Assembly (NCBI GenBank): GCA_965204875.1
Contig: OZ242020.1
Coordinates: 2,475,729-2,539,728, forward strand
Length of the DNA: 64,000 bases
Direction: 5' to 3'
Source: Candidatus Aldehydirespirator sp.
GTDB lineage: Bacteria > Actinomycetota > Acidimicrobiia > Acidimicrobiales > Aldehydirespiratoraceae
Each line of letters begins with the position of its first letter. Position 1 is the stretch's first letter. Position numbers and translations under genes: made by a program. The notes under the pieces are model-generated. The model saw only the letters and a program-made list of their open reading frames with translations, had not been told where the DNA came from and searched no databases. Below are positions 9,232 through 25,984 of this stretch, one piece after another.

Positions 9232-11613
<2,382 letters not shown>

Positions 11614-12132
11614 CTAGCGGGCCGCCCTGCCTGCGGGACCGGCCGGCACCGGAGACTCGCCGCCGCTGTTGTCCCCGGCCGTCGCATGAGCGCCGACGGT
11701 GTCGGCGGGCGCGCCCAGGCAGTCGGGGCAGTGACCCCAGTAGATGACCTCGGCCTCGTCGATAGTAAAGCCGAAGTCGTCGTCGACGTCCAGGCACGGC
11801 CGGTACCCGGCGGCGCAATCGACGTCGACCATGCGGCCGCAGGCGCGGCAGACCAGATGGTGGTGGTTGTCGTCGACCCGGTCCTCGTAGCGCGCCGCCG
11901 AGCGCGCCGGCTGGATGCGCCGGATCAGGCCCTTCTCTGACAGCACGGCCAGGGCGTCGAACACCGCCTGCCGGGACACCGCCCCGATGGCGGCACGGAC
12001 GTCGTTGGCGAGATCGTCGGCCGTGGCGTGCGGTCGGGCCGACACGGCCCTCAACACAGCCAGCCGCTGAGCCGTCACCTGGATCTCGTGTGCCCTCAAC
12101 TTCTGCTCGAGCCGCCCGGCGTCCTTGGCCAT
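11614..12132 (-). CDS. furA: Fur-family peroxide-responsive regulator
   Basis: [10 protein letters not shown]...CPDC metal sites and a winged-helix N-terminus. It sits immediately upstream of katG, as in mycobacterial furA-katG. Confidence 0.85.
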
Positions 12133-12138
12133 GCAGCC

Positions 12139-12177
12139 ACCATAGCACTATTCTGGATCAAATCAACAATTTGATTT
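12139..12177 (-). promoter_or_regulatory. Candidate leaderless furA promoter (-10 TATGGT) with AT-rich inverted repeat (possible FurA box)
   Basis: On the minus strand: AAATCAA-ATTG-TTGATTT (12177..12160), then TATGGT (12144..12139), 6 nt, then ATG (12132). This is the only AT-rich patch for several kb. It overlaps the selD stop codon. Confidence 0.4.
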
Positions 12178-13230: not shown

Positions 13231-13296
13231 CGCACTCACCCCCTCACGTCTCACGCTCCGGCTGAAGCCCCCGCAGGATAGGCACCCCCCGAAGCC

Positions 13297-14421
13297 GTGG
13301 CCGGGACGGCTCTGCTGCGACGGGCGCCGGATGCCCTGCGGGAGCGCCGGTATGGTGCTGCGGTGAGCGTTGATCCGCGCCTTGTCACCAGGGCCGGCGA
13401 GCTGTTCGGTGTGGACTACCCGATCGTGCAGACCGGCATGGGCTGGGTGGCCGGCCCGTCGCTGGTCGCCGGTGCCGCCGAGGCCGGAGCGCTCGGGATA
13501 CTCGCCTCGGCCACCATGACCCTCGACGAGATGGAAGCGGCCATCGCCGAGGTCAAATCCCGCACGGGCCGGCCCTTCGGCGTCAACCTGCGCCCCGACG
13601 CCGCCGACCTGGCTGATCGCGCCGACCGGCTGGTGAGCGCCGGGGTGCGGGTGGCCAGCTTCGCCGGACCCCCGGCCGCTCGGGTCGTGGCGCGGCTGCA
13701 GGAGGGCGGGGTGCTGGTGATGCCGACGGTGGGCGCCCGCCGCCACGCTCAGAAGATGGCCGAGCTCGGGGTGGATGCGGTGCTCTGCCAGGGCGCCGAG
13801 GGTGGCGGACACACCGGCAACATCCCCACGTCACTGCTGCTGCCGCAGGTGCTCGACGCGGTGGACGTCCCGGTGATCGCCGCCGGCGGGTTCCACGACG
13901 GTCGTGGCCTGGCCGCAGCGCTCGCCTGGGGGGCTGACGGCGTGGCCATGGGCACCCGGTTCCTGCTCACGGCCGACTCCAGGGTGCCCGACGCGGTGAA
14001 GTCCGTCTACCTCGCCACACCCGTGACCGGCACTGTGGTGTCGAGCCGGATCGACGGCAAGCCGCAGCGAGTGATCCGCACCGATCTCGTCGACTCGCTC
14101 GAATCGGCGGGCATCACCCGGCTCGCTCGGGCCGCTCTGAACGCTTGGCGCTTCCGCCGCCTCACAGGCACGAATGTTGCGGCCCTGTTGCGCGAGGGCC
14201 TGGCCATGAAGCGCAGCCAGGGACTCACCTGGAGCCAGACGGCGATGGCCGCCAACGCGCCGATGCTCACTAGAGCGACCATGGTTCTCGGTGACATCGA
14301 AGCCGGCATCCTGCCCACCGGCCAGTGCGTGGGCGTCGTGGACGACCTTCCGACCTGCGCGGAGCTCATCGACCGGATCGTGTCCGAGGCTGTCGCCGCA
14401 CTCGACCGCCTCAAGCCGTAG
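13297..14421 (+). CDS. Nitronate monooxygenase / FabK-like enoyl reductase family flavoprotein
   Basis: FGVDYPIVQTGMGWVAGPSLVAGAAEAGALGILA and the GAEGGGHTG motif. The start is uncertain (13297, or GTG 13363). Confidence 0.8.
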   Translation: MAGTALLRRAPDALRERRYGAAVSVDPRLVTRAGELFGVDYPIVQTGMGWVAGPSLVAGAAEAGALGILASATMTLDEMEAAIAEVKSRTGRPFGVNLRPDAADLADRADRLVSAGVRVASFAGPPAARVVARLQEGGVLVMPTVGARRHAQKMAELGVDAVLCQGAEGGGHTGNIPTSLLLPQVLDAVDVPVIAAGGFHDGRGLAAALAWGADGVAMGTRFLLTADSRVPDAVKSVYLATPVTGTVVSSRIDGKPQRVIRTDLVDSLESAGITRLARAALNAWRFRRLTGTNVAALLREGLAMKRSQGLTWSQTAMAANAPMLTRATMVLGDIEAGILPTGQCVGVVDDLPTCAELIDRIVSEAVAALDRLKP

Positions 14422-14496
14422 CGGCGCTCGCACCGCGCTCGTCGCCGACCTGCTCGCCTGGTTGGCGTCTCGCGTGTTGGTCGTGCTCGCCTATAG

Positions 14497-14685
14497 TGAC
14501 CCAGGCTGTCGTGAGCGAAGCCGGTGAGATCCCGGCACTGTCCCGCAACGGTGATGCCCCCTAGGGGGACGAGTCCGGTCGCCTCGCGTCCGCTGCATCG
14601 ATCCGATCCTCGAGGAAGGAGCGGCTCGTGCGGTGGGTCCTCCCGCTGCTCGGCGCTGAACTCGAGCAGAAGGGAGCAAACCCTG
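14497..14685 (+). promoter_or_regulatory. Cobalamin (B12) riboswitch leader
   Basis: Core GAAGCCGGTGAGAUCCCGGCACUGUCCCGCAACGGUGA (14517..14554), then a small hairpin CCCCCUAGGGGG and the B12-box-like GAGUCCGGUCGCCUCGC (14571..14587). A -10-like TATAGT lies at 14492..14497. A hairpin CUGCUCG-N10-CGAGCAG abuts the SD of the downstream gene. Confidence 0.75.
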
Positions 14686-15705
14686 ATGACCGACACCGCA
14701 ACACGGCGAGCCTCGCGACGGCGAACCTCGCGGCTACTCAAGCTGCTTGCACTCTTGCTCATTCCTGTGCTCGTTGCCGCTGCCTGCGGCGGCTCGGACG
14801 CCGAGGACGCCCGAGAGGAAGTAACGCCTGCCGCAGCGGCGCCCGCCAACGCTGCGGAGAGCGAGCACACCGTCGCTCCGGCCGACGCTGGGGATACCAA
14901 CCGCGCAGCGGCATCCGCCGGCACTGACGCTGCCCAGCGGATCGTGTCGATATCTCCGACAGGCACCGAGATGCTCTTCGCCATCGGTGCGGGCGATCGG
15001 GTCGTTGCTGTCGACCGGTTCTCCTACTTTCCCGAGGAAGCGCCGGTCACCGAACTGGACGGCTGGAACCCCAACATCGAGGCGATCGCCTCATACGAAC
15101 CCGACCTGGTGGTGCTGCAAACCAACGGCGACGTCATCGCCGCTCTCGAGGCGCTCGGCATAGCGGTGTTCGCACACGACGCCCCCGTCACCTTCGAGGA
15201 GGTGTACGCCCAGATCGAGCGACTCGGTGGCGTTACCGGCCACGACGATGGGGCCTCCAGGCTCGCCGCAGGCATGCGCTCCCGGATCGCCGAGCTAATC
15301 GCCGCCGCGCCCGACTCGCCGGGTCTCACCTACTATCACGAGCTCGACGACACCCTTTACAGCGTCACCGGCAGCACCTTCGTCGGGCAGGTCTACGCGC
15401 TGTTCGGCCTGGTCAACATCGCCGATCCCGCTGACGCCGACGGCAGCGCCTGGGGCTACCCGCAGCTGAGCGACGAGTACATAGTGGACGCCGACCCCGA
15501 CGTGATCTTCCTGGCCGACACGCTGTGTTGCGGCCAGAGCGCAGAGACGGTCGCCGAGCGCCCCGGCTGGGATCAGCTCAGCGCGGTGCAGGCAGGTCGC
15601 GTGGTCGAGCTCAATGACGACATCGCCTCGCGCTGGGGGCCTCGCCTCTTGGACTTCATCGCGTCCATCTCCGAGGTGGTCGCGTCCATCGGTGCCGCGG
15701 CTTAG
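14686..15705 (+). CDS. Cobalamin/siderophore-type ABC substrate-binding lipoprotein (BtuF-like)
   Basis: ATG 14686 follows SD AAGGGAG. The signal plus lipobox is LLALLLIPVLVAAAC, followed by a periplasmic binding protein fold type 2 pattern. It lies downstream of the B12 riboswitch. Confidence 0.8.
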   Translation: MTDTATRRASRRRTSRLLKLLALLLIPVLVAAACGGSDAEDAREEVTPAAAAPANAAESEHTVAPADAGDTNRAAASAGTDAAQRIVSISPTGTEMLFAIGAGDRVVAVDRFSYFPEEAPVTELDGWNPNIEAIASYEPDLVVLQTNGDVIAALEALGIAVFAHDAPVTFEEVYAQIERLGGVTGHDDGASRLAAGMRSRIAELIAAAPDSPGLTYYHELDDTLYSVTGSTFVGQVYALFGLVNIADPADADGSAWGYPQLSDEYIVDADPDVIFLADTLCCGQSAETVAERPGWDQLSAVQAGRVVELNDDIASRWGPRLLDFIASISEVVASIGAAA

Positions 15706-15897
15706 CAACTGTCACAAGTGGGCTGAAGTGCCGTCACACCCTCCATCGAACCGCCGGCAGGAGCCACGGCGCTGCCTGCCGGTGGCACCGAGCCGGTGGT
15801 GTCGGCTGCCATCGAACTATCGGCGGGAGCAATGCAGACCGAGGAGCGAGGCATCGCTGATTTGGTATCTGCCGCCGTCGAACTGCCGGCGCAGTCC

Positions 15898-16965
15898 ATG
15901 ACCGGTTCGTTACCGAGTGGCCGAGTGGACGCCTTGCCGCTGTCGGGGCTGCGACCGGGTCACCTCGCTGCGGGCGTCGTTGCGGTGTTGGTGGCGGTCA
16001 TCGCCGGGCTGACCATCGGGCCGGTCGACATCGCCGCGCACCGTGTCGTGCTCGAGTTGCTCGATGCGCTGCCCCTGGTGACATTCGATTCCGGCTTGAG
16101 CGGTGCGCACGCCGCCATCGTCAACGAGATCCGGCTGCCCCGCGTGGTGCTCGGCCTGCTGGTGGGCGCCACCCTGTCGCTCAGCGGTGCCACCTATCAG
16201 GGGGCGTTCCGCAACCCGCTGGCCGACCCGTACCTGCTGGGAATAGCCGCCGGCGCGGGACTCGGGGCGACGATTGCCATCACCAGCAACCTCGGCGACG
16301 GTGCCGGGGCTCTCGACGCCGTGCCGCTCGCCGCCTTCGCGGGCGCGCTGGCGTCGGTGGCCGTGTCATTTGCCGCCGGGCACATCGGCGGCCGCTCGAC
16401 GGCCTCGCTGATCCTCGCCGGCATTGCGGTGGCGAGCTTCCTCACGGCCTGCCAGACCTACGTGCTGCAGGCCAACAGCGACGCGTTCCGCAAGATCTTC
16501 GCCTGGATCCTGGGACGCATCGCCACCTCGGGATGGTCCGAGCCGGCGCTGATGCTGCCGTACTTCATCGTGATGGTGGCGGTGGTGCTGAGCTACCGCC
16601 GGGCCATCGACGTGCTCGCCGTCGGCGACGAGGAGGCGTCAGCGCTGGGGCTCAATCCCCGCAGGGTGCGCATGGTCGTGGTGCTCGCGGCGTCGCTCGG
16701 TGCGGCCGCGGCCGTGTCGGTCAGCGGGCTGATCGGCTTCGTCGGGATCATCGTGCCCCACACGGTGCGGCTCGCCTTCGGCTCGAGCAACCGGGCGGTG
16801 CTGCCCCTGTCGGTGCTCTTCGGCGGTGCCTTCATGGTGCTGGCCGACCTAGCGGCACGCACCGTGCTGGCGCCGGCCGAGCTGCCGATCGGCGTCGTGA
16901 CGGCGTTCCTGGGCGCACCGTTCTTCGTGCTGGTGCTGCGTACCAGCCGCCGGGAGATCTGGTGA
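15898..16965 (+). CDS. FecCD/BtuC-family ABC permease
   Basis: About 10 TM segments with LRLPRVVLGLLVGA...GLIGFVGIIVPH motifs. The start is ambiguous (ATG 15898, or ATG 15832 inside a repeat copy). Confidence 0.85.
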   Translation: MTGSLPSGRVDALPLSGLRPGHLAAGVVAVLVAVIAGLTIGPVDIAAHRVVLELLDALPLVTFDSGLSGAHAAIVNEIRLPRVVLGLLVGATLSLSGATYQGAFRNPLADPYLLGIAAGAGLGATIAITSNLGDGAGALDAVPLAAFAGALASVAVSFAAGHIGGRSTASLILAGIAVASFLTACQTYVLQANSDAFRKIFAWILGRIATSGWSEPALMLPYFIVMVAVVLSYRRAIDVLAVGDEEASALGLNPRRVRMVVVLAASLGAAAAVSVSGLIGFVGIIVPHTVRLAFGSSNRAVLPLSVLFGGAFMVLADLAARTVLAPAELPIGVVTAFLGAPFFVLVLRTSRREIW

Positions 16966-17762
16966 GGCAGGCGGTGACCGTGCGGTCGCTCGAGGTCGCC
17001 CTCAACGGCAACCAGGTGTTGCGCGGTGTCGATCTGGCGGTGCCGGCGGGGGAGTGGGTCAACGTCATCGGGCCGAACGGTGCCGGCAAGACGACGCTGC
17101 TGCGGGCACTGCTCGGGCTCGTGCCGTTCGGCGGGGAGATCGACATCGACGGGCTCCGCGACAGGCGGCGTGCTTCCAGGGCGCGCAAGCTGGCATATGT
17201 TCCGCAGACGCCGGCGACACCTCCGGGGATGCAGGTGGCCGACTATGTGCTGTTGGGACGCACTCCGCACCGGAGCCTCTTCACGGCCCCGACCCACGAC
17301 GACCGGAGCATCGCTGCGGAGGTGCTCCACCGTCTCGACCTGGGAAGCCTCGGCGCACGCACCGTGCAGTCGCTGTCGGGCGGGGAGCGCCAGCGGGCGG
17401 TCTTGGCGAGGGCGCTGGCGCAGCAGGCGGAGGTGCTGCTGCTGGACGAGCCCACCACCGCCCTCGATCTGGGCCATCAGCAGGATGTGCTCGATCTGGT
17501 GGACGCGCTGCGCCGCGAGCGCGGGCTCACCGTGATCGCCACGCTTCACGATCTGACCCTGGCGGCCCGCTACGGTGACCGCATCGCCATGCTTGCCGGC
17601 GGCCGCGTCGTCAAGATCGGAACGCCGACCGAGGTGCTGACGGTCGGCAACATCGCCGCACACTTCGGTGCCAGCGTGCGGATCATCGCCGATCCCGAGG
17701 GTCCCGTGATCGTGCCCACGACGGTCGCGGCCCACACCGAGGCCATCCGCTCATCGAACTAG
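16962..17762 (+). CDS. ABC transporter ATP-binding protein (BtuD/FepC-like)
   Basis: GTG 16962 overlaps the permease stop as GTGA. Motifs: GPNGAGKTTLL, LSGGERQR, LLLDEP. The 409-aa ORF in the track is an in-frame 5' over-extension. Confidence 0.9.
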   Translation: MRQAVTVRSLEVALNGNQVLRGVDLAVPAGEWVNVIGPNGAGKTTLLRALLGLVPFGGEIDIDGLRDRRRASRARKLAYVPQTPATPPGMQVADYVLLGRTPHRSLFTAPTHDDRSIAAEVLHRLDLGSLGARTVQSLSGGERQRAVLARALAQQAEVLLLDEPTTALDLGHQQDVLDLVDALRRERGLTVIATLHDLTLAARYGDRIAMLAGGRVVKIGTPTEVLTVGNIAAHFGASVRIIADPEGPVIVPTTVAAHTEAIRSSN

Positions 17763-17870
17763 AGGGTGGGCAAGCTCTGCGCCGGGCGCCGCGTCAACAC
17801 CCGCACACGCCCACCCGCAACAAGTCACCCCTCGCACACGGCCACCCGCTCAACGAACCAAGGGACCGCC

Positions 17871-18446
17871 ATGCCTGCAACGACCGACACTCCCCCCACC
17901 GAGGATCCTCGACCCGGCGGGATGCGCCCTGCCAAGAGCCTCGTGGTCGTCAACACCGGCGACGGCAAGGGCAAGTCCTCGGCCGCCTTCGGCACCGCCA
18001 TGCGGGCCCGGGCCCGCGGCTGGCCGGTGGCGGTCGTCCAGTTCCTCAAGTCCGAAGAATGGGTCACGGGCGAGCAGTTGATGGCGGCGCCGCTGGGCAT
18101 CGACTTCTGGTCGCTGGGCGAGGGCTTCACCTGGGACAGCGACGACCTGACCCGCGACCAGGCCGAGGCCCGAGAGGCATGGCGCCACGGCAGGGCCACA
18201 GTGGAGGCCGGGGCACATCGCCTGGTGGTGTTCGACGAGATCACCTATCCCCTCAACTGGGGCTGGATCGACGCCGGCGAGGTGGAGGCCACCTTTCGTG
18301 CCAGGCCAGAGCACGTGTCGCTGGTGTTGACAGGCCGCGACGCCCCCGAGTGGATGCTGGAGCTGGCCGACACGGCGACCGAGATGGTCAAGTTGAAGCA
18401 CGCCTACGACTCGGGCATCCTCGCCAAGAAGGGCCTCGACTACTGA
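17871..18446 (+). CDS. cobO: Cob(I)yrinic acid a,c-diamide adenosyltransferase
   Basis: VNTGDGKGKSSAAFG...VVQFLK...DEITYPL...KHAYDSGILAKKGLDY is characteristic of the CobO/BtuR family. Confidence 0.9.
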   Translation: MPATTDTPPTEDPRPGGMRPAKSLVVVNTGDGKGKSSAAFGTAMRARARGWPVAVVQFLKSEEWVTGEQLMAAPLGIDFWSLGEGFTWDSDDLTRDQAEAREAWRHGRATVEAGAHRLVVFDEITYPLNWGWIDAGEVEATFRARPEHVSLVLTGRDAPEWMLELADTATEMVKLKHAYDSGILAKKGLDY

Positions 18447-18521: not shown

Positions 18522-19220
18522 ATGTGCGGTCGCTATGTGGCAGCCACCCCGCCCGACGAGCTGGCCCGCTACTTCGGGGCGCCGGCACCCGAGCCGGAGG
18601 ATTTTCTCGACCCCAACCACAACGTGGCGCCGACCCAGGCTGTGAACGTCGTGCGCGAGTTGGACGGCGCTCGCCGCCTCGACGTTCTGCGCTGGGGTCT
18701 CGTGCCGTTCTGGGCCAAGGACCCCAGGATCGGCAGCCGGATGATCAACGCCCGCGCCGAGACCGCCGCCACCAAGAACGCGTTCCGCCGGCCGCTGGCC
18801 AAGAGGCGCTGCATCATCCCCGTCGACGGGTTCTACGAGTGGCACCGCACGGAGGGCTCTAAGCGCAAGCAGCCCATGTTCATCAGCCGTCCCGACGGAG
18901 AGCCCTTCGCCTTCGCCGGGCTCTGGGAGGTCTGGCGCGATCCGAACAACCTCGACGTCGGCGGCGAGCCCCGCGAGCTGCATTCCTGCACCATCATCAC
19001 CTGCGCGGCCAACGAGGCCATGTCCGAGATCCACGAGCGCATGCCGGTGATGCTGGCGCCGAGCGCCTGGGACTTCTGGCTCGACCCCGCCAACACCGAC
19101 GCAGAGGCCGCGTCCGGGCTCCTCGTGCCCGCACCCTCAAGCCTGATCTGCATGCATCCGGTGTCAACCGAGGTCAACAACGCCCGCCACAACGGCCCCC
19201 ACCTGATCGCTCCCATCTGA
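18522..19220 (+). CDS. SOS-response-associated peptidase (SRAP/YedK, DUF159)
   Basis: The MCGRY N-terminus has the catalytic Cys2, followed by WGLVPFWAKD. The -10-like TAGGTT ends 6 nt before the ATG, suggesting a leaderless transcript. Confidence 0.9.
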   Translation: MCGRYVAATPPDELARYFGAPAPEPEDFLDPNHNVAPTQAVNVVRELDGARRLDVLRWGLVPFWAKDPRIGSRMINARAETAATKNAFRRPLAKRRCIIPVDGFYEWHRTEGSKRKQPMFISRPDGEPFAFAGLWEVWRDPNNLDVGGEPRELHSCTIITCAANEAMSEIHERMPVMLAPSAWDFWLDPANTDAEAASGLLVPAPSSLICMHPVSTEVNNARHNGPHLIAPI

Positions 19221-19252: not shown

Positions 19253-19822
19253 ACGTTCTCGGCACGTGTCGGCTCCGGTTCTAGCGCCGAGGTACCCTCA
19301 GTGGTTAGTCCAACGAATACGACCATAGGGGAACCCAGTTGAGCCTTCGATCCGGTGACGAAGTGACCCTTGTGGGGCGGCTGCAGGAGCGCCATGTCGT
19401 TAGGCCGCGGTCCGGCGGACAGCCGTTCGTCAAGGCAACCTTGATCGTTGAGGATAGAGGTGAGCTAGGGCAGGCCGGTCGCTATCGCGATCGAACGGTA
19501 CCGCTGGTATGGTGGGATGCGGGGCGGGCTCCTGCCGAGGGTGCATCGGTGCAGGTGCAAGGCGCTGTGCGCGAGTACGACGGCACCCTTGAAGTTCATG
19601 TGAACTCCCATGCGATCAAGAGGACCGGACCTCCAGACGATCCGATAGCACGAGTCCTTGGGTACTATATCGAGTGTATTGAGGCGGAAGCGTCTGGAGA
19701 AGTTCGGTTTCCATTGGGCAGCACCAACTGTGTCAAACTTGTCAGTGGGCCAAGCTGGATACACGGCGCTCGTTATCTGCCGACCAACGACAATGTGGAT
19801 CGATGGTGCCGGCAAAGAAGAA

Positions 19823-21174
19823 GAGCCTTCGCGGTTTTGTGGGATGGGGGGTGGTTGAGGGTCCCTGTGTGGGGGTCGAGGCCCTGCTGGAATCGGTTGT
19901 GTAAGCGACCGACGATCCAGGAGGGCCTCGATGGCTGCGGATGTTATGGGGGTGCGGTTGGGTTTGCCGCAGTTGCGGGTGTTGGGGGTTGTCTCGGACT
20001 CCCCGGAGCGGTTGGTGGTGGCTGTGGAGGCCACCTGGCGGCGGTTGCGGTGCCCTCAGTGCGGGTTCAAGTGCCATAGGGTGCATGACCGGCGCGATAA
20101 GCGGGTGCGTGATCTGGAGATCTCGGGGCGGGTGGTGACGCTGGTGTGGCGGCGCCGCCGGTTCCGCTGCGACGACTGCGGCAGCCGGTTTTTGGAGGAG
20201 CATCCGGCGTTCGAGGGCGGGTTGACGGGGCGGCTGGCGCGCAGGCTGGTGGCCGATGCCAGGGTCATGCCGGTCTCGGCGGCCGCGAGGCGTCACGGGC
20301 TGAGCTGGTGGCTGGTGATGGGCGTGCTCAGCTCCTGGGCCGGGCTTGTGGCTGAGCATCGCAGAAGCCGCGTGTGCAGGGTGCTGTTGGTGGATGAGAC
20401 CTCGATCCGCAAAGGGCATCGTTACGTGACCGTGGTCGCCTGCGGCGACACCGGCCGGATCCTGGGGCTGATCCCGTCGCGCACCACCGCCGCGCTGTCA
20501 ACGTTCCTAGCTCAGCAGGGGTATAGATGGTGCAAGCAGGTCAAGGTCGTGGTCAGCGACGGATCGCCCGCCTACAAGGCCGCCATCACCCAGCACCTGG
20601 GACACTGTCGGCATGTGCTGGACCGGTTCCACGTCATCAGATGGTTCACAGCGGGGCTCACCGCGGTGCGCCGCGACACCCAACGCCGACAGCCCCCGGG
20701 CGTCCAGCCTGTCTTTGACCGCGACGTGTTCCGAGCCAGGTTCCTGCTGCTACGCCGCGGCGACACCCTCACAGACTCTGACCGGCAGCGGCTCGACACG
20801 CTGTTCGAGGCGCACCCAAGGCTCCAAGCCGGCTGGGACGCGCTACAAGAACTCCACGGCCTCTACACCGCCGACGACCACCAAGGCGCCCTCGCCGCCC
20901 TTGACCGGTTCTGTGACCTCTACCAAACCGGCAAGCTACCCGAATACCACAAAATCGTAGACACCATCATCCAATGGAGCCCCGAAATCCTCGCATGGCA
21001 CCACACCAGCCGACCCAGCAACGGCCGCATCGAGGGCATCAACAACCTCCTACAAATCCTACGACGCACCGCCCACGGCTTCACCAACCCCACCAACTAC
21101 CAAACCCGAGCACTCCTCATAACATGAACCCAACCGACACCAGCAACCCCCATCCCACAAAAACGCGAAGGGCC
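19823..21174 (+). mobile_element. ISL3-family insertion sequence, copy 1 (1352 bp)
   Basis: Imperfect terminal inverted repeats GAGCCTTCGCGGTTTTGTGGGATGGGGG / GGCCCTTCGCGTTTTTGTGGGATGGGGG. The 8-bp target duplication AAGAAGAA is at 19815..19822 and 21175..21182. Confidence 0.9.
19931..21127 (+). CDS. ISL3-family transposase
   Basis: 398 aa. The N-terminal zinc-finger CPQCG...C....RDLEISGRVVTLVWRRRRFRCDDCG is typical of ISL3 transposases. Confidence 0.9.
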   Translation: MAADVMGVRLGLPQLRVLGVVSDSPERLVVAVEATWRRLRCPQCGFKCHRVHDRRDKRVRDLEISGRVVTLVWRRRRFRCDDCGSRFLEEHPAFEGGLTGRLARRLVADARVMPVSAAARRHGLSWWLVMGVLSSWAGLVAEHRRSRVCRVLLVDETSIRKGHRYVTVVACGDTGRILGLIPSRTTAALSTFLAQQGYRWCKQVKVVVSDGSPAYKAAITQHLGHCRHVLDRFHVIRWFTAGLTAVRRDTQRRQPPGVQPVFDRDVFRARFLLLRRGDTLTDSDRQRLDTLFEAHPRLQAGWDALQELHGLYTADDHQGALAALDRFCDLYQTGKLPEYHKIVDTIIQWSPEILAWHHTSRPSNGRIEGINNLLQILRRTAHGFTNPTNYQTRALLIT

Positions 21175-23467
21175 AAGAAGAATGGCCCTCGGCGAGACAA
21201 TAGTTGCCGGATGGCCGATGGTGTTCGGCGCCAACCCTGACAACCATGGGCGAGATCTGATCATGTCTCCACTATTGATCACAGATGTCGATCTCGAACC
21301 TAAGGGTGACTTGTGGCAGATCATCCCCCGGAGTAATGGTGTCGATCTAAACCCCTGGGCACTACGGCTTTTGGGAGTTCCTCGCGAGGAAGGGGACGCG
21401 TTGACGCGGCTGATCGAGGACACGCCCGCTGTCGAAGAGGCTAGGCTGCAAGCAGATCGTGCCGCTGCGATCCTTGATGTACTGTACAACAATGGCATCG
21501 GCGGATTGGAAGATCTAGATTCTCAAGTTCTTGCCTCGCATCAGGGTACCCCTGGCATCCATAACTCCGGGTTGATCTTCACATCGAACGGATCCACGCA
21601 GATCACTCGTAAACTCCTGGAAGATCTAGACGAACTATCCAATAGCCCCAGTATGCTGTCGAGCGGTCCGGCGGCCGTGATGCTGGGTCTGGTCGCGGCA
21701 CCGATCGTATCGATCCCGACACCGCACCCTGTGGTCGTTCCCTCGACTCTGGTGCAGGACCAGGCCATCGCGTCGGCAATGGAAAACGACTTCACCGTGG
21801 TCACAGGTCCACCTGGCACCGGAAAGTCGCAGGTTCTCGTGAATGTCGTTGCCGCGGCCGTGGCGCGTAACGAGTCTGTGCTGTTCGCGTCGAAGAACAA
21901 CAAGGCTGTGGATGTCGTGTTTGAACGGTTGGCCTTGACAAGTGCCGAGCCGTGCATCGTGCGCGCCGGTGCCTCCAGCCAACGGCGTGACGTGGCGTCG
22001 AGTATTCAGAGAATGCTAGCTACACCACACAAGCGCGTTGATCCTGCGGCTGTCCGCAGGCAGTGGCTTGCTGTCAGAGCGAAGGTTCAGCAGGTTTATG
22101 ATGTTCTTCATCGTCGTGCGCGATTGGATGGGGAAATCGGTAAACTGGAAGCTGATCTGCGCGATCGCTTGGACAAGTTGCCTGCGAACATCAACTTGGA
22201 CATCGATCCTCACCAACTCGATAAGTTACTGCAAGAAGTGCGGATCGCGCTTGACGCTTTCGGTAAGAGGCTTGGGTTTCTCCGGCGCTGGAAGAAGCAT
22301 CGTCATCGTTTGGAGCAGGCAAGAGAGAAGCTGTTGGCGCTTGGCGAGTTGGTGGGTTTGGACCGGGACATCGTTGAGCACCCACTGAGGTCGGTCAGCG
22401 ATAAACCCAAACGATCTATGGTACCGCGGCAAGACTTCAGTGCCATTGAGCGGACGGTAGACACTATTCGCTCGCTGGTGAATGACAGTCGTGCGCTTGA
22501 GCGATCGCGTCGGGAACTAGATGCTCTGCCCACCAAGCAAGAACTCGACGATCAGCTCCACACGATCGAGCGGCAGAGAGTCGAAAGTGGTCGAACGTTC
22601 CTAGACGCTCGCTGGGAACAGATACGGCGCAACGATCCAAAGTCTCGTACCGCTGCCGGTGATCTCGCAGAGTTGCTTGAGAAGGTCGCAGGTTCGGGCC
22701 GGGGAGCGCGTCGTGCCTTGGGGTTGGTTCGCCCGGCGCTCCCGGCGATTCCCGTGTGGGGTGTAACAAATCTGTCAGCTCGCACGAACTTGCCGCTAAT
22801 CAAGGGGTTGTTTGACCTAGTGGTGATAGACGAAGCATCTCAGTGCGATGTGGCCTCGGCTCTTCCGCTATTGGCACGGGGGCGTCGCGCCTTGATTATC
22901 GGCGATCAAAGACAACTGACCCACATAACCTCGCTCAGCTCGGCCCGAGAGCGCAACATTGGTCGTCGCTGGGCACTAACTGACGAACGAATCAACGAAT
23001 TCAGTTATCGACGCAGAAGTTGCTTCGGGTTGGCCGCATCGCGTGTCAGTCAGTCCCCGATCTTTCTCGACCTGCACTTCCGATCTCATCCGGGCATCAT
23101 CGGGTTCTCGAACGAGCACTTCTATGACGGCCGACTCGAGTTATGTTGGGACAACAAGGGCGCAGGTTCCTCGACGAGTTGGCCTGCCATCGAGTGGAAG
23201 AGGGTAGACGGCGATAGCCGGCAGGGTCCTCGCGGGCGGAGCCGCATCAACCCTCAGGAGGCTAGGGCATTGGTGGATGCCTTGTCCCGAGATATGGCGA
23301 CCTATCGCGAGCTTCGCCTTTCCGTGGGGATTGTCACCCCTTACCGATCACAAGTGGATCTGATACGCGAGCGGCTTCTCGAGGTGCTCGATGAGGAGTG
23401 GACTCGCGAGATCACGGTCGCAACTGCGCACAGGTTTCAGGGCGATGAGCGCGATATCATCTATTTC

Positions 23468-24819
23468 GGCCCTTCGCGTTTTTGTGGGATGGGGGTTGCT
23501 GGTGTCGGTTGGGTTCATGTTATGAGGAGTGCTCGGGTTTGGTAGTTGGTGGGGTTGGTGAAGCCGTGGGCGGTGCGTCGTAGGATTTGTAGGAGGTTGT
23601 TGATGCCCTCGATGCGGCCGTTGCTGGGTCGGCTGGTGTGGTGCCATGCGAGGATTTCGGGGCTCCATTGGATGATGGTGTCTACGATTTTGTGGTATTC
23701 GGGTAGCTTGCCGGTTTGGTAGAGGTCACAGAACCGGTCAAGGGCGGCGAGGGCGCCTTGGTGGTCGTCGGCGGTGTAGAGGCCGTGGAGTTCTTGTAGC
23801 GCGTCCCAGCCGGCTTGGAGCCTTGGGTGCGCCTCGAACAGCGTGTCGAGCCGCTGCCGGTCAGAGTCTGTGAGGGTGTCGCCGCGGCGTAGCAGCAGGA
23901 ACCTGGCTCGGAACACGTCGCGGTCAAAGACAGGCTGGACGCCCGGGGGCTGTCGGCGTTGGGTGTCGCGGCGCACCGCGGTGAGCCCCGCTGTGAACCA
24001 TCTGATGACGTGGAACCGGTCCAGCACATGCCGACAGTGTCCCAGGTGCTGGGTGATGGCGGCCTTGTAGGCGGGCGATCCGTCGCTGACCACGACCTTG
24101 ACCTGCTTGCACCATCTATACCCCTGCTGAGCTAGGAACGTTGACAGCGCGGCGGTGGTGCGCGACGGGATCAGCGCCAGGATCCGGCCGGTGTCGCCGC
24201 AGGCGACCACGGTCACGTAACGATGCCCTTTGCGGATCGAGGTCTCATCCACCAACAGCACCCTGCACACGCGGCTTCTGCGATGCTCAGCCACAAGCCC
24301 GGCCCAGGAGCTGAGCACGCCCATCACCAGCCACCAGCTCAGCCCGTGACGCCTCGCGGCCGCCGAGACCGGCATGACCCTGGCATCGGCCACCAGCCTG
24401 CGCGCCAGCCGCCCCGTCAACCCGCCCTCGAACGCCGGATGCTCCTCCAAAAACCGGCTGCCGCAGTCGTCGCAGCGGAACCGGCGGCGCCGCCACACCA
24501 GCGTCACCACCCGCCCCGAGATCTCCAGATCACGCACCCGCTTATCGCGCCGGTCATGCACCCTATGGCACTTGAACCCGCACTGAGGGCACCGCAACCG
24601 CCGCCAGGTGGCCTCCACAGCCACCACCAACCGCTCCGGGGAGTCCGAGACAACCCCCAACACCCGCAACTGCGGCAAACCCAACCGCACCCCCATAACA
24701 TCCGCAGCCATCGAGGCCCTCCTGGATCGTCGGTCGCTTACACAACCGATTCCAGCAGGGCCTCGACCCCCACACAGGGACCCTCAACCACCCCCCATCC
24801 CACAAAACCGCGAAGGCTC
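23468..24819 (-). mobile_element. ISL3-family insertion sequence, copy 2 (1352 bp, inverted relative to copy 1)
   Basis: This copy mirrors copy 1 (x maps to 44642-x). The 8-bp target duplication TCTATTTC is at 23460..23467 and 24820..24827. I found one difference from copy 1 (20465 g versus c at the position equivalent to 24177, Gly to Ala in the transposase). Confidence 0.9.
23515..24711 (-). CDS. ISL3-family transposase
   Basis: 398 aa, identical to the copy-1 transposase except G/A in GRIL(G/A)LIPS. Confidence 0.9.
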   Translation of the reverse strand: MAADVMGVRLGLPQLRVLGVVSDSPERLVVAVEATWRRLRCPQCGFKCHRVHDRRDKRVRDLEISGRVVTLVWRRRRFRCDDCGSRFLEEHPAFEGGLTGRLARRLVADARVMPVSAAARRHGLSWWLVMGVLSSWAGLVAEHRRSRVCRVLLVDETSIRKGHRYVTVVACGDTGRILALIPSRTTAALSTFLAQQGYRWCKQVKVVVSDGSPAYKAAITQHLGHCRHVLDRFHVIRWFTAGLTAVRRDTQRRQPPGVQPVFDRDVFRARFLLLRRGDTLTDSDRQRLDTLFEAHPRLQAGWDALQELHGLYTADDHQGALAALDRFCDLYQTGKLPEYHKIVDTIIQWSPEILAWHHTSRPSNGRIEGINNLLQILRRTAHGFTNPTNYQTRALLIT

Positions 24820-25558
24820 TCTATTTCTCACCCGTCATCGGCCCCTCGATGTCGGAGCGACAGGCCGCCTTTGCATCGGATCCCAACCTCGTGAACGTTG
24901 CTCTCACGAGGGCTCGCCGGAGACTCGTCATCTTCGGAAATATGGGCGCATGTCTCAGGCATCGCAACGTGCTCGCCGAGCTGGCTCGATACGTTAGCCG
25001 TTTTGAAGTCGAAGGGTTCGACAGCCCACTCGAACTGGCTCTGTATGAAGCCCTGCTAGAGCGCGGCATCGCAGCGCAAACCGGAGTCATCGTGGCAGGT
25101 CACCGTTTGGATCTGGCCGTCGTTCAAGACGGCCGAAGACTAGACATCGAGTGCGATGGCGCTGCCTTCCACAGCGGCCGCGAGGCCGACCGGATACGCG
25201 ACCGAGACATCAGAGCCGCAGGATGGCGGGTCATGCGGTTTAGCGGCCGACGCCTCAGCACCGATCTAGCGGGCTGCGTAGAAGATATAGAGAGATTGCT
25301 TGTTTAGCCGAAACCGGAGTTTGAAGCAACCGGATTAGCGACTCTTTGCTTTTGGTCCGGGGTGGGGTGGTGGCGGTGCTGTTGGCGTTCCAGGCGAACG
25401 CGGCGGCGCCGAGGGTGCGTGATGCGGTGGAGTCCGGCCGGGTGTCGCAGACCAACGCCAAGAGGTTGGCTGAGGCGGTAGAGCTTGCTGCGCCTATCAG
25501 AGCACATATCGGCGTAGGGGAGTCGGCTGTGCGTCTAAATCGGCTGCGCTTGCCGGTT

Positions 25559-25960
25559 CTATTGGGTTAGATGCTGGCGTAGGGACTTGGCTATGGCGTC
25601 TAGGTCTGCTGGGTCGGCGTCGGTGTCAGCCTGGGCGAAGTCCAGGTGGGACATCGTCTCTATGGGCACCACGTGCACGTGCACGTGCGGCACCTCGAAA
25701 CCGGCGATCATCAGGCCTACGCGGCCTGGGGCGAGTCCCGCCGCCCGCTGCGCGGCTGCCACCCGGTGCGCGACCGCCATGAGGTGGCCGACGGTGCCCG
25801 GATCCAGGTCCACCCAGTGGTCGACCTCGGCCCGGGGCACCACCAGTACATGGCCGCGGTTGAGGGGCCGCACGTCGAGGAAGGCGACGCAGGTGTCGTC
25901 GCTCCACACGAAGCGGCCCGGAATCTCGCCATCGATGATGCGGGTGAAGATTGAAGGCAC
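25559..25960 (-). CDS. HIT-family (histidine triad) protein
   Basis: VPSIFTRIIDGEIPG...NRGHVLVVP...VPHVHVHVVP contains the HxHxH triad. The GTG start at 25960 lies inside the 497-aa ORF of the track. Confidence 0.85.
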   Translation of the reverse strand: MPSIFTRIIDGEIPGRFVWSDDTCVAFLDVRPLNRGHVLVVPRAEVDHWVDLDPGTVGHLMAVAHRVAAAQRAAGLAPGRVGLMIAGFEVPHVHVHVVPIETMSHLDFAQADTDADPADLDAIAKSLRQHLTQ

Positions 25961-25984
25961 ACGCTGATCGTAGGCTCCACGCCG

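What the first reader, a model, noticed from the sequence alone, without database searches (positions are those of the whole stretch)
19339..25307. Low-GC single-gene helicase-nuclease (candidate defence system) that is restorable to 1082 codons after removing two IS insertions
Deleting IS copy 1 (19823..21174) and copy 2 (23468..24819), each with one copy of its 8-bp target duplication, joins three pieces. These are 19339..19822, 21183..23467 and 24828..25307. They join in frame across both junctions (...DRWCRQRR|MALGETIV... and ...GDERDIIYF|SPVIGPSMSERQ...), giving one 3249-nt ORF. The product has several recognisable parts:
- an N-terminal OB-fold-like ~100 aa;
- a DUF4011-like segment (SPLLITDVDLEPKGDLWQIIPRSNGVDLNPWALRLL);
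- SF1 Upf1/DNA2-type helicase motifs with a long coiled-coil insert between Walker A (GPPGTGKSQ) and VVIDEASQ;
- a C-terminal DUF559/Vsr-like PD-(D/E)xK module (HRLDLAV...LDIECDGAAFH).

Hand-counted 60-nt samples of this gene are about 48-55% GC, against 70-80% in flanking genes. The gene sits alone between an SRAP gene and a HIT gene. Helicase plus Vsr-like nuclease in one polypeptide recalls single-gene antiphage proteins such as Hhe and, more loosely, Nhi, as I remember them. The extra OB-fold is not part of what I recall for those. The gene has been inactivated twice, which fits a costly accessory or defence gene.
Basis: partly seen in the sequence, partly recalled or inferred. Interest (0 to 1): 0.72.

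Follow-up and report, generated by a model that had tools for sequence, protein, structure and literature searches.

The report
IS-broken helicase-nuclease defence candidate gene
A horizontally acquired gene for a large helicase fused to a DNA-cutting domain, most likely a stand-alone anti-phage protein distantly related to the known Hhe and ProA defence proteins, sits alone between two housekeeping genes and has been knocked out by two copies of one jumping gene. It is real and neatly reconstructable, but it is a new variant of a known kind and not a new principle.

Summary
Two ISL3-family insertion sequences (1352 bp, one nucleotide apart, inverted, each with its own 8-bp target duplication) split one gene. 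Removing them gives a 3249-nt, 1082-codon ORF with no stop and every family-invariant residue intact.

The product has four parts: an SSB-like OB fold, a family-specific middle domain, a Upf1-like SF1B helicase with a ~235-residue helical insert after Walker A, and a Vsr-like MTES_1575/DUF559 nuclease.

The gene is a lineage-specific insertion. At least 27 related Acidimicrobiales genomes have the SRAP and HIT genes within 0.6 kb, with no helicase. One relative carries a Type ISP restriction enzyme in the same gap.

Full-length homologues (38-67% identity) have no conserved partner gene. They lie among restriction-modification, GmrSD, Abi, HEPN, toxin-antitoxin and transposase genes.

It is not Hhe or ProA: it scores 138 and 195 bits against cut-offs of 2000 and 1500. 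It shares their helicase-nuclease half and, weakly, the DUF4011 core motif.

The double hit needs no fitness cost. The IS targets AT-rich 8-mers, and this gene (58% GC against 69%) holds a third of them.

Verdict: an inactivated member of an untested, compact Hhe/ProA-like family. Moderate interest.

The parts
19339..19822 (+). Fragment 1 of the helicase-nuclease gene (codons 1-161 plus 1 nt). It starts at TTG 19339 with an AGGGGA Shine-Dalgarno-like motif upstream. It encodes the OB fold (aa 1-95, 19339-19623) and the start of the middle domain.
19823..21174 (+). ISL3-family insertion sequence, copy 1 (1352 bp). The transposase ORF is 19931-21127. The imperfect terminal inverted repeats include 19826-19853 and 21144-21171. 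It is flanked by the 8-bp target duplication AAGAAGAA (19815-19822 and 21175-21182).
   Evidence: In one search the transposase hits DDE_Tnp_ISL3 (3.8e-58), Zn_ribbon_ISL3 and HTH_Tnp_ISL3.
21183..23467 (+). Fragment 2 of the gene. It holds the rest of the middle domain (to about 21688, including the DUF4011-core-like motif), Walker A GPPGTGKS (21806-21829), the helical insert (aa 449-683, about 22043-22747), Walker B DEAS (22829-22840) and the first part of RecA2/AAA_12 (from 23015).
   Evidence: This fragment is annotated on its own as the 775-aa protein P0001 in public data.
23468..24819 (-). ISL3-family insertion sequence, copy 2 (1352 bp), inverted relative to copy 1 and differing from it by one nucleotide. 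The transposase ORF is 23515-24711 on the minus strand. It is flanked by the 8-bp target duplication TCTATTTC (23460-23467 and 24820-24827).
24828..25307 (+). Fragment 3 of the gene. It holds the end of RecA2 (to about 24944, including motif VI VALTRAR) and the Vsr-like MTES_1575/DUF559 nuclease (aa 990-1081, about 25026-25302). The conserved nuclease residues D1018, D1029, E1031, D1033, H1038, R1047, D1048, W1056 and R1060 are all present. The stop codon is at 25305-25307.
18522..19220 (+). Left flank: the SRAP (SOS-response-associated peptidase) gene, a conserved core gene. In relatives it lies next to the HIT gene.
25559..25972 (-). Right flank: the HIT-family (HinT-like) gene, convergent with SRAP. 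Together the two genes mark the empty-site boundaries of the insertion.

Best explanation
This is a horizontally acquired, stand-alone helicase-nuclease gene of an uncharacterised family. The family is a compact, distant relative of the Hhe/ProA anti-phage proteins. In this genome the gene has recently been inactivated by two independent insertions of the same ISL3-family element.

**Shown here.**
- The gene landed in the short spacer between the convergent core genes SRAP and HIT. A relative has a Type ISP restriction enzyme in that same spacer.
- The encoded 1082-aa protein has, in order: an N-terminal SSB-type OB fold; a family-specific alpha/beta middle domain; a Upf1-like SF1B helicase core with a long helical insertion after Walker A; and a C-terminal Vsr-like PD-(D/E)xK nuclease with all conserved residues present.
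- The family has no conserved partner gene and sits among defence and mobile genes.

**Inferred mechanism.**
- The OB fold and helicase load on single-stranded nucleic acid exposed by phage replication or recombination. Alternatively they respond to phage DNA-metabolism proteins, as reported for Hhe.
- ATP-driven 5'-to-3' translocation, typical of Upf1/DNA2-type SF1B motors, then licenses or positions the Vsr-like nuclease to nick or cut DNA.
- This stops phage replication directly or kills the infected cell.

**The IS hits.** They are recent. The two copies differ by 1 nt and the ORF shows no further decay. Their position is at least partly explained by the element's preference for AT-rich 8-bp targets, which are concentrated in this lower-GC gene.
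For: **Anatomy.** The IS copies, target duplications and in-frame restoration are.

**Structure.** The AlphaFold model is confident (pLDDT 90.5, pTM 0.88) and shows the domain order. The fold search returns Senataxin/Sen1, Upf1, IGHMBP2, Aquarius, DNA2 and ZNFX1. The PDB sequence search returns the same families. The N-terminal ~100 residues match SSB, RPA and PriB with target TM-scores of 0.6-0.72. PF01336 hits 20 of 22 members.

**Integrity.** All 64 invariant columns of an 86-sequence alignment are kept, as are the nuclease motif residues.

**Acquisition.** SRAP and HIT lie within 0.6 kb in 27 of the 80 related loci and within about 3.3 kb in 13 more; only L024 has a large insert. No locus has a helicase. 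L024 carries a Type ISP R-M enzyme in the same gap (PADLOC REase_MTase_IIG, 1059 bits). GC is 58.3% against 69%. This is the only region of the window below 63% GC.

**Defence association in 11 independent homologue loci.**
- GmrSD (three genes), AbiEii and SLFN_AlbA_2.
- HNH plus ResIII plus two N6_N4 methyltransferases.
- ResIII plus methyltransferase, UvrD-PDDEXK and a TrwC relaxase.
- PemK and a transposase.
- PIN, Eco57I and SIR2_2.
- HipA.
- HNH plus HEPN_Swt1.
- An integrase, IS21 and PDDEXK_9.
- HigB and SLFN_AlbA_2.
- No gene recurs next to the helicase across these loci.

**Relation to known defence proteins.**
- PADLOC matches MkoC, PDC-S37, MkoA and Hhe. NCBIfam matches ProA, PLuB and Hhe.
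- BLASTP of homologue P0002 against a bona fide ProA gives 26% identity over the RecA2 and nuclease half.
- The DUF4011 core motif aligns at hhalign P = 1.9e-4.
- Distant relatives that share only the middle domain and helicase replace the OB fold with a caspase domain or lack it, a modularity typical of immune proteins.

**IS target preference.** Both duplications are 25% GC. Only 0.6% of 8-mers in the window are that AT-rich, and 32% of those lie in this gene.

**Hhe triggers.** Hhe is reported to be triggered by T7 DNA-metabolism genes (bioRxiv 10.1101/2024.10.10.617714).
Against: - No member of this family has been tested against phage, and I found no paper on it.
- Matches to defence models cover only the generic helicase core plus the nuclease. 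They fall far below the curated cut-offs.
- Several homologues sit among ordinary metabolic genes with only a toxin-antitoxin pair or an integrase nearby. The defence association was judged by eye on 11 loci and not against a background rate.
- Upf1-like helicases act on RNA as well as DNA, so the substrate is open.
- The copy in this window is dead, so it does nothing now.
Confidence: 0.66

Rival explanations
1. It is an RNA-directed defence or surveillance helicase. It would act like Upf1, Mokosh MkoA/MkoC or the CoCoNuT CnuH helicases: the OB fold and motor track phage or aberrant RNA, and the Vsr-like domain acts on RNA or on the transcribed DNA.
For: - The best PADLOC scores are to the Mokosh helicases MkoC (208 bits) and MkoA (164 bits).
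- The closest solved structures are RNA helicases: SETX/Sen1, Upf1 and IGHMBP2.
- CoCoNuT CnuH proteins are described with the same layout: an OB fold, a large coiled-coil helical insertion after Walker A, and a Vsr-like nuclease fused directly to the helicase in Type III-B. They are predicted to target RNA (PMC11090510).
Against: - The OB fold matches ssDNA binders (SSB, RPA, PriB) best.
- Vsr/DUF559-type nucleases are DNA enzymes by established knowledge.
- There is no PLD or HEPN domain in the protein.
- There are no McrB or McrC neighbours in the window or in the 11 homologue loci.
- DNA2, a DNA enzyme, belongs to the same helicase clade.
Confidence: 0.15
2. It is an accessory DNA repair or recombination helicase-nuclease, working like DNA2 or AddAB in end or flap processing. 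It would have been acquired by chance, with no role in conflict with phages or plasmids.
For: - An OB fold, an SF1B helicase and a PD-(D/E)xK nuclease are also the parts of DNA2.
- The gene lies next to SRAP, a DNA-damage-associated gene. Another family member has an SRAP gene 4 kb upstream.
- Some homologues have only metabolic neighbours.
Against: - It is absent from the same locus in all 80 related loci examined.
- Distribution is patchy with no conserved synteny.
- GC content is lower than the host's.
- The same gap is occupied by a restriction enzyme in a relative.
- Neighbours are often R-M, GmrSD, Abi, HEPN and toxin-antitoxin genes.
- The N-terminal domain is swapped for a caspase in distant relatives that share the middle domain and helicase.
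- In DNA2 the nuclease lies before the helicase and is not Vsr-like, so the domain order differs.
Confidence: 0.1
3. It is cargo of a mobile element that serves the element and not the host. For example, it could exclude or degrade competing plasmids or conjugative elements, or act as an addiction module. Its loss here would simply reflect decay after the carrier element was lost.
For: - The closest intact homologue (P0002, 67% identity) lies beside a TrwC relaxase and a T2SSF gene, which are conjugation genes.
- Other copies lie next to integrases, IS21, Mu-type and Mutator transposases.
- The helicase-nuclease half matches proteins on 316 plasmids.
Against: - In the window there is no integrase, relaxase or att-like repeat around the gene. 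A 9-bp flanking repeat is not significant.
- No full-length family member occurs in 72,556 plasmid records.
- This reading overlaps with defence rather than excluding it.
Confidence: 0.08

Closest known systems
ProA (NCBIfam NF058533) and Hhe (NCBIfam NF042953, PADLOC Hhe): single-protein DUF4011 helicase plus Vsr-nuclease anti-phage proteins of about 1800-1960 aa
   Same: - Both are single polypeptides with an SF1 AAA_11/AAA_12 helicase whose RecA1 domain is split by a long insertion. A MTES_1575 Vsr-like nuclease follows directly.
- Homologue P0002 is 26% identical to a bona fide ProA over RecA2 plus the nuclease.
- A 65-residue motif block lies just upstream of the helicase. It has the form G..L..G.. 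then (S/A)PL(L/I)..V.L then N..(A/L)L.LL, and it aligns with the DUF4011 core at P = 1.9e-4.
- Both families are found in defence contexts.
   Different: - This protein is about half the length (1082 aa against 1797-1963).
- It scores 195 bits for ProA and 138 bits for Hhe, against cut-offs of 1500 and 2000.
- It lacks the ~370-aa region that precedes DUF4011, and it lacks the C-terminal DUF3320 winged helix.
- Pfam detects no DUF4011 in it.
- It has an SSB-like OB fold that Pfam does not report in the ProA control.
- HMMER finds its N-terminal module in no protein longer than about 1260 aa.
CoCoNuT CnuH helicase, especially Type III-B (Bell et al., eLife 2024, PMC11090510)
   Same: As described in the paper, CnuH is a Upf1-like SF1 helicase with a large, partly coiled-coil helical insertion right after Walker A. 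It has an OB-fold domain, and in Type III-B a Vsr-like PD-(D/E)xK nuclease is fused directly to the helicase.
   Different: - CnuH is defined by a nearly invariant association with McrB/McrC-type CnuB/CnuC genes. None are present here or in 11 homologue loci.
- Type III-B CnuH also has an N-terminal Sul7s-like winged helix.
- I had no CnuH sequence, so sequence relatedness was not tested.
Mokosh helicases MkoA/MkoC and PADLOC candidate PDC-S37
   Same: These give the highest-scoring PADLOC matches (208, 164 and 192 bits) over the Upf1-like helicase core. The PDC-S37 match also covers part of the nuclease.
   Different: - The matches cover only part of much longer models.
- Mokosh uses a PLD nuclease, which is absent here.
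- I found no literature on PDC-S37.
Eukaryotic Upf1-like SF1B helicases (Senataxin/Sen1, Upf1, IGHMBP2, DNA2)
   Same: They share the helicase fold and motifs and are the best PDB matches by both sequence and structure. DNA2 also combines an OB fold, a nuclease and an SF1B helicase.
   Different: - They are eukaryotic housekeeping proteins, only 11-18% identical to this one.
- Their accessory domains and domain order differ.
- None has a Vsr-like nuclease.
Nhi, Hna and HmaA: solitary helicase-nuclease defence proteins
   Same: They share the general logic of one protein with a helicase sensor or motor plus a PD-(D/E)xK-type nuclease (PMC11232893).
   Different: - Nhi has an N-terminal nuclease and a DUF2075 helicase of about 610 aa.
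- Hna and HmaA are SF2 helicases.
- No PADLOC match to any of them was returned.

Membership tests
Hhe (DUF4011 domain-containing anti-phage protein) | Whole-protein match to the curated Hhe model above its cut-off (NCBIfam NF042953, 2000 bits) | tested here: not met
   The restored protein scores 137.9 bits. Homologues P0002 and P0100 score 136 and 103 bits. The match covers only residues ~704-1060. PADLOC Hhe gives 96.8 bits over 685-1061.
Hhe (DUF4011 domain-containing anti-phage protein) | DUF4011 domain (PF13195) upstream of the helicase | tested here: inconclusive
   - Pfam finds no DUF4011 in the protein, or in 22 family N-termini even at E <= 1.
- hhalign against a single ProA sequence finds nothing.
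- The 22-sequence profile against a 70-sequence DUF4011 alignment gives P = 0.006.
- A 198-sequence middle-domain profile gives probability 48% and P = 1.9e-4 over 65 columns. Restored residues 161-226 align to ProA residues 480-547.
Hhe (DUF4011 domain-containing anti-phage protein) | SF1 helicase (AAA_11/AAA_12) followed by a Vsr-like MTES_1575/DUF559 nuclease in one polypeptide | tested here: met
   AAA_11 at 81 bits, AAA_12 at 111 bits and MTES_1575 at 51 bits, all above their Pfam cut-offs. The nuclease motif residues are intact.
Hhe (DUF4011 domain-containing anti-phage protein) | Demonstrated protection against phage | not testable with these tools
   This needs cloning and phage challenge.
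ProA (NCBIfam NF058533) | Whole-protein match above 1500 bits, spanning the ~1900-residue model including the DUF3320 C-terminus | tested here: not met
   The restored protein scores 195.5 bits over model positions 1127-1683. The positive control, the Klebsiella pM63-1 protein, scores 2225 bits over positions 2-1903 and carries DUF4011 and DUF3320.
CoCoNuT Type III-B (CnuH with CnuB/CnuC) | Upf1-like helicase with a helical insertion after Walker A, an OB fold and a directly fused Vsr-like nuclease | tested here: met
   The AlphaFold model shows helices at 449-683 between Walker A (370-377) and Walker B (711-714), an OB fold at 8-94 and the nuclease at 990-1081. The family description comes from PMC11090510.
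CoCoNuT Type III-B (CnuH with CnuB/CnuC) | Conserved neighbouring McrB-like GTPase (CnuB) and McrC-like (CnuC) genes | tested here: not met
   Window neighbours are the btuFCD-like genes, cobA, SRAP, HIT, a glpD-like gene, an alpha-amylase gene and a LacI-family regulator gene. No McrB/McrC-type families appear in the 11 homologue loci.
CoCoNuT Type III-B (CnuH with CnuB/CnuC) | Sequence relatedness to CnuH closer than to other Upf1-like helicases | not tested
Mokosh (MkoA+MkoB or MkoC) | PLD-family nuclease, fused or as a partner | tested here: not met
   Pfam finds no PLD domain. The PADLOC MkoC and MkoA matches are limited to the helicase core.
Nhi | N-terminal nuclease plus a DUF2075-type SF1 helicase, about 610 aa | tested here: not met
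   The nuclease is C-terminal and the protein is 1082 aa. No Nhi model appears among PADLOC matches at E <= 0.01. The architecture of Nhi is taken from PMC11232893.
Upf1-like (SF1B) helicases | Two RecA domains carrying Walker A, Walker B (DEAS), the GDxxQL motif, the QGxE motif and the motif VI arginine, with Upf1/Sen1/IGHMBP2/DNA2 as nearest relatives | tested here: met
   The invariant residues G370-Q378, D711, E712, G735, D736, Q739, L740, Q914, G915, E917 and R951 are present. PDB matches by sequence (E-values from 1e-41 to 1e-22) and by fold confirm the clade.
ISL3-family insertion sequence | DDE_Tnp_ISL3 transposase with a zinc ribbon and HTH, terminal inverted repeats and an 8-bp target duplication | tested here: met
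   DDE_Tnp_ISL3 scores 197.6 bits, with Zn_ribbon_ISL3 and HTH_Tnp_ISL3 also hit. The terminal inverted repeats are 28 nt at 93% identity. Both copies have exact 8-bp duplications.

The most novel reading that the evidence does not exclude
The roughly 1070-aa proteins of this family form an unrecognised, stand-alone anti-phage system. They combine an SSB-like OB fold, a DUF4011-core-like middle domain, a Upf1-like helicase with a helical insert, and a Vsr-like nuclease. In effect this would be a minimal Hhe/ProA. The N-terminal module would be an exchangeable sensor or effector: an OB fold here, and a caspase-like protease or nothing in distant relatives that share the middle domain and helicase. 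The OB fold would read out phage single-stranded DNA intermediates to license the nuclease. Being half the size of Hhe or ProA, it could serve as a tractable model for how this whole group of helicase-nuclease defences recognises infection.
Probability: 0.45. Interest if true: 0.55.

Novelty: new variant of a known kind. Interest (0 to 1): 0.42.

Why it matters
If the family is a working defence system, it adds a compact, single-gene member to the helicase plus Vsr-nuclease group (Hhe, ProA), whose mechanism is still largely unknown.

The AlphaFold model is confident. The N-terminal module is exchangeable (OB fold, caspase or none), which offers a direct handle on how infection is sensed.

The locus also documents two points of genome ecology in poorly studied Acidimicrobiales (the closest helicase homologues come from sponge-associated Candidatus Poriferisodalis):
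- A short spacer between two convergent core genes (SRAP and HIT) acts as a recurrent landing site for defence cargo.
- A foreign gene of lower GC content can attract an IS that prefers AT-rich targets. This gives a neutral route to rapid loss of acquired defence genes, with no need to invoke a fitness cost.

For this particular genome the gene is dead, so the practical consequence is nil.

Tried and rejected
- **Public fragment look-up.** Looking up the annotated fragment P0001 to get the source contig returned nothing on record. The organism was instead placed through SRAP relatives. It is an Acidimicrobiales bacterium closest to Candidatus Aldehydirespirator MAGs, at about 79-80% identity on SRAP.
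- **DUF4011.** Pfam gave no hit on the protein or on 22 family N-termini. hhalign against a single ProA sequence gave probability 0.3%. A pairwise Smith-Waterman score (34) equalled the shuffled mean. Only enlarged profiles gave a borderline signal.
- **Middle domain (about residues 100-330).** The PDB fold search of the N-terminal model was dominated by the OB fold, so this domain got no structural match.
- **Insertion boundaries.** Intergenic spacers of relatives are too divergent to align. The longest repeat found between the flanks is 9 bp, and 10% of shuffles reach that length. The flanks have no blastn similarity to homologue loci.
- **Promoter and terminator scans** around both ends of the gene found nothing.
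- **Plasmids.** A search for full-length members found none. Only Hhe/ProA-like C-terminal halves matched.
- **Literature.** Searches for PDC-S37, ProA, DUF3320 and MTES_1575 returned no functional study of this family.
- **Assembly artefact.** I rejected this reading. Each IS has its own intact target duplication, the copies differ at one base, and the restored ORF matches intact homologues end to end.

Full report
**1. The observation**

The sequence is as described. A 1353-nt perfect-looking inverted repeat links 19822-21174 with 23468-24820. Trimmed to the element itself, the two 1352-bp copies (19823-21174 and 23468-24819) are reverse complements with a single difference, at 20466.

Each copy encodes a 398-aa transposase. 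It carries DDE_Tnp_ISL3 (E = 3.8e-58), the ISL3 zinc ribbon and the ISL3 HTH. Each copy has imperfect terminal inverted repeats. Each is bracketed by its own exact 8-bp duplication, AAGAAGAA or TCTATTTC. These are therefore two independent transpositions of one ISL3-family element.

Deleting each copy with one duplication joins 19339-19822, 21183-23467 and 24828-25307. The result is a 3249-nt ORF of 1082 codons with a TTG start and no internal stop.

The restored gene is 58.3% GC and the flanks and window are 69%. The contrast is still real, and this is the only part of the window below 63% GC.

**2. The restored protein is a genuine, intact-looking family member**

A search of 5.8 billion proteins found full-length homologues of 1065-1100 aa. 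They cover 100% of the query at 67% identity down to about 38%. Some are annotated only as 'AAA domain-containing protein' from Candidatus Poriferisodalis and Poriferisocius, Ilumatobacter, Thermacetogenium phaeum and many MAGs. The only 100% match is the middle fragment of this very gene, annotated as a 775-aa protein on a 3.05-Mb contig.

In an 86-sequence alignment the restored protein keeps all 64 invariant columns. Its N-terminus coincides with the homologues' start. The nuclease motif residues D1018, D1029, E1031, D1033, H1038, R1047, D1048, W1056 and R1060 are all present.

Together with the near-identity of the IS copies, this says the inactivation is recent.

**3. Anatomy**

Pfam reports three domains above cut-off:

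| Domain | Residues |
|---|---|
| AAA_11 | 353-741 |
| AAA_12 | 773-962 |
| MTES_1575 (DUF559 weaker) | 994-1078 |

The MTES_1575 nuclease was defined as a Vsr-fold restriction-endonuclease domain fused to SF1 helicases in conflict systems (PMC3710099).

An AlphaFold model built on the family alignment is confident, with mean pLDDT 90.5 and pTM 0.88. It shows, in order:
- a five-stranded beta barrel at residues 8-94;
- a helix at 102-119;
- an alpha/beta domain up to about residue 330;
- RecA1 from 351;
- a block of long helices at 449-683, lying between Walker A (370-377) and Walker B (711-714);
- RecA2 up to about 960;
- a compact alpha/beta nuclease at 990-1081.

By sequence and by fold, the nearest solved structures are Upf1-like SF1B helicases: Senataxin/Sen1, Upf1, IGHMBP2, Aquarius, DNA2 and ZNFX1.

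The N-terminal barrel is an OB fold. PF01336 matches 20 of 22 family N-termini (best E-value 1.5e-8). A separate model of residues 1-345 (pLDDT 85) hits SSB, RPA and PriB with target TM-scores of 0.6-0.72.

**4. DUF4011**

Pfam finds no DUF4011. I used a bona fide ProA protein as a control. It is a 1963-aa protein on a Klebsiella plasmid, scoring 2225 bits against a cut-off of 1500. It carries DUF4011 at 375-545, a split AAA_11, AAA_12, MTES_1575 and DUF3320.

By eye, the control shares a co-linear motif block with the window protein:

| Motif | ProA control | Window protein |
|---|---|---|
| First | GANTLFLAVGFLKW | GETIVAGWPMVFG |
| Second | SAPLILLPIQL | SPLLITDVDL |
| Third | FNLTLLELL | LNPWALRLL |

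The spacing between motifs is nearly the same in the two proteins.

Statistics are borderline:
- Nothing against the single ProA sequence.
- P = 0.006 with a 22-sequence profile against a 70-sequence DUF4011 alignment.
- Probability 48% and P = 1.9e-4 over 65 columns once the middle-domain profile was enlarged to 198 sequences.

I read this as probable but unproven homology to the DUF4011 core.

**5. The gene is an insertion at a reusable site**

Eighty genomic loci encoding relatives of the SRAP protein were fetched, mostly Acidimicrobiales MAGs. The closest are Candidatus Aldehydirespirator MAGs, at about 79-80% identity.
- In 27 of them SRAP and HIT lie within 0.6 kb, and in 13 more within about 3.3 kb. 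In the closest relatives the spacer between the two stop codons is roughly 30-200 bp. None contains the helicase.
- Upstream synteny (btuD-like, cobA, SRAP) is also kept in the closest relative, L005.
- One relative, L024, has a 6.7-kb insert in exactly this gap. The insert encodes a Type ISP restriction-modification enzyme with Mrr_cat_2, ResIII, the ISP coupler, N6_Mtase and Type_ISP_C domains (PADLOC REase_MTase_IIG, 1059 bits).

The SRAP-HIT spacer is therefore a small hotspot that has taken up defence cargo at least twice.

Around the window gene everything else is housekeeping: a cobalamin riboswitch, a btuFCD-like transporter, cobA, SRAP, HIT, a glpD-like gene, an alpha-amylase gene and a LacI-family regulator gene. 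No integrase, tRNA or significant flanking repeat marks the insert.

**6. Context of intact homologues**

Eleven independent loci were inspected.

| Locus (call) | Notable neighbours within 10 kb |
|---|---|
| L001 (12) | Three GmrSD genes, AbiEii, a Schlafen/AlbA_2 protein |
| L002 (13) | HNH, ResIII, two N6_N4 methyltransferases, an integrase |
| L004 (14) | ResIII plus methyltransferase, UvrD-PDDEXK, REase-ARP, a TrwC relaxase |
| L085 (23) | PemK, a Mutator transposase |
| L086 (24) | AAA-ATPase_like, Nmad2 |
| L087 (25) | PIN, Eco57I, SIR2_2 |
| L088 (26) | HipA |
| L090 (88) | HNH, HEPN_Swt1 |
| L091 (89) | Only an integrase |
| L092 (90) | AAA-ATPase_like-PDDEXK_9, integrase, IS21, Mu-type transposase |
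| L093 (91) | HigB, SLFN_AlbA_2-HATPase_c_4, AAA_21-PHP |

No neighbour recurs, so the protein works alone. This is the pattern of a mobile accessory or defence gene and not of a housekeeping helicase. The judgement was made by eye on 11 loci, without a background rate.

**7. Relation to known systems**

PADLOC's best matches are MkoC (208 bits), PDC-S37 (192), MkoA (164) and Hhe (97). All are confined to the helicase core, with part of the nuclease for PDC-S37 and Hhe. NCBIfam gives ProA at 195 bits (cut-off 1500), PLuB at 147 (cut-off 999) and Hhe at 138 (cut-off 2000). Two intact homologues behave the same way, while the ProA control passes.

The family is therefore not Hhe, ProA, PLuB or Mokosh.

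BLASTP of homologue P0002 against ProA aligns RecA2 plus the nuclease at 26% identity, and the Walker A region at 40% over 65 residues. No plasmid in PLSDB carries a full-length member.

A profile of the N-terminal 345 residues was searched against 1.84 billion representative proteins:
- 425 proteins scored E <= 0.001 and 111 scored E <= 1e-10.
- None of the 150 best hits listed is longer than about 1260 aa, so HMMER does not see this module in Hhe/ProA-sized proteins.
- The family is modest in size.
- Some members lack the OB fold.
- In the distant matches P0210, P0217 and P0244 (E about 1e-9 to 1e-11, middle domain only), a caspase domain (Peptidase_C14) replaces the OB fold. Pfam detects no Vsr-type nuclease in those three.

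The literature describes a very similar layout for CoCoNuT CnuH helicases. They are Upf1-like, with a large coiled-coil insertion after Walker A and an OB fold. In Type III-B a Vsr-like nuclease is fused directly to the helicase (PMC11090510). Those helicases are defined by their McrBC-type partner genes, which are absent here.

**8. Mechanism**

Shown:
- the domain order;
- intact ATPase and nuclease motifs;
- an ssDNA-binder-like OB fold;
- the solitary genomic state;
- the defence-rich neighbourhoods.

Inferred:
- The protein most likely loads through its OB fold and SF1B motor on single-stranded nucleic acid produced during phage replication or recombination.
- It then translocates 5' to 3', as Upf1/DNA2-type motors do.
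- Translocation activates or positions the Vsr-like nuclease to nick or cut DNA.
- The long helical insert and the DUF4011-like middle domain would act as regulatory or oligomerisation elements.

For Hhe, the nearest tested relative, a knockout screen pointed to T7 class II DNA-metabolism genes as triggers. It also showed trigger-dependent toxicity (bioRxiv 10.1101/2024.10.10.617714). That fits sensing of replication activity.

An RNA-directed mode, as proposed for Mokosh and CoCoNuT, cannot be excluded.

**9. Why two IS hits?**

Both target duplications are 25% GC. Only 369 of about 61,000 8-mers in the IS-free window are that AT-rich, and 117 of them (32%) lie in this gene, which is 5.3% of the sequence. 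The element clearly prefers AT-rich targets.

Under that preference, two hits in this gene have a chance of about 0.1 within the window, against 0.003 by length alone. A fitness cost of the gene is possible but not required.

The two inverted copies also create a 2.3-kb segment that could invert or move as a composite element. In the present sequence it is in its original orientation.

**10. Verdict**

The finding is real and well described. The defence interpretation is reasonable and now has contextual support, but no experiment backs it.

The protein is a new variant of the Hhe/ProA helicase plus Vsr-nuclease theme: compact, carrying an OB fold, and solitary. It is not a member of those families and not a new kind of system. 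The copy in this window is non-functional.

Interest is moderate.

Noticed in passing
L024:10696-17375 (Acidimicrobiales MAG OY730440.1): The same SRAP-HIT gap holds a Type ISP restriction-modification gene. It appears split into two ORFs (10875-15425 and 15517-16251), with the C-terminal specificity domain divided between them. It may be frameshifted and inactive, which would be a second case of decayed defence cargo at this site.
   Followed up: partly
P0210, P0217, P0244: Distant matches to the middle-domain profile (E about 1e-9 to 1e-11), 1190-1242 aa long, share the middle domain and helicase but carry an N-terminal caspase domain (Peptidase_C14) in place of the OB fold. Pfam finds no MTES_1575 or DUF559 nuclease at their C-termini. 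Other members simply lack the OB fold, for example P0066.
   Followed up: partly
window:19823-24819: The two ISL3 copies are inverted and bracket the central 2.3 kb of the gene (21183-23467). This forms a composite-transposon-like or invertible segment. Both copies seen in the 64-kb window lie in this one gene.
   Followed up: partly
window:19274-19282 and 25553-25561: A 9-bp direct repeat, CCGGTTCTA, brackets the whole lower-GC insert, and its right copy overlaps the HIT stop codon. If it marked the insertion boundaries, the ancestral spacer would be about 66 bp, similar to relatives. A 9-mer match between these flanks is reached in about 10% of shuffles, so it may be chance.
   Followed up: partly
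window:14465-14604: A cobalamin riboswitch (Rfam RF00174, just above its gathering score) lies upstream of a btuF/btuC/btuD-like ABC transporter (14524-17762) and cobA (17766-18446). This looks like a B12 uptake and salvage operon directly upstream of the SRAP gene.
   Followed up: no
window:19459-19497 (residues ~41-53 of the restored protein): The window protein has an insertion of about 11-13 residues (GELGQAGRYRDRT) in a loop of the OB fold that the homologues lack. It is the only segment of the model with pLDDT below 50.
   Followed up: no
L093:5418-6092: In an unrelated contig, another family member (P0061) also has an SRAP-family gene about 4 kb upstream. The surrounding region is full of small unknown ORFs, a HigB toxin and a Schlafen/AlbA_2 protein. 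This could be coincidence, or SRAP genes may recurrently border such islands.
   Followed up: no
P0076 and P0084 (same 2.39-Mb contig); P0067; P0070 and P0085 (same 4.44-Mb contig): Several large contigs carry truncated family members of 736-801 aa with no nuclease domain, or two copies on one chromosome. This hints at further disrupted or duplicated copies elsewhere.
   Followed up: no
window:60906-60991: This tRNA-Leu (CAA) gene is the only tRNA in the window. It lies far from the insert, so it is not its integration site.
   Followed up: no
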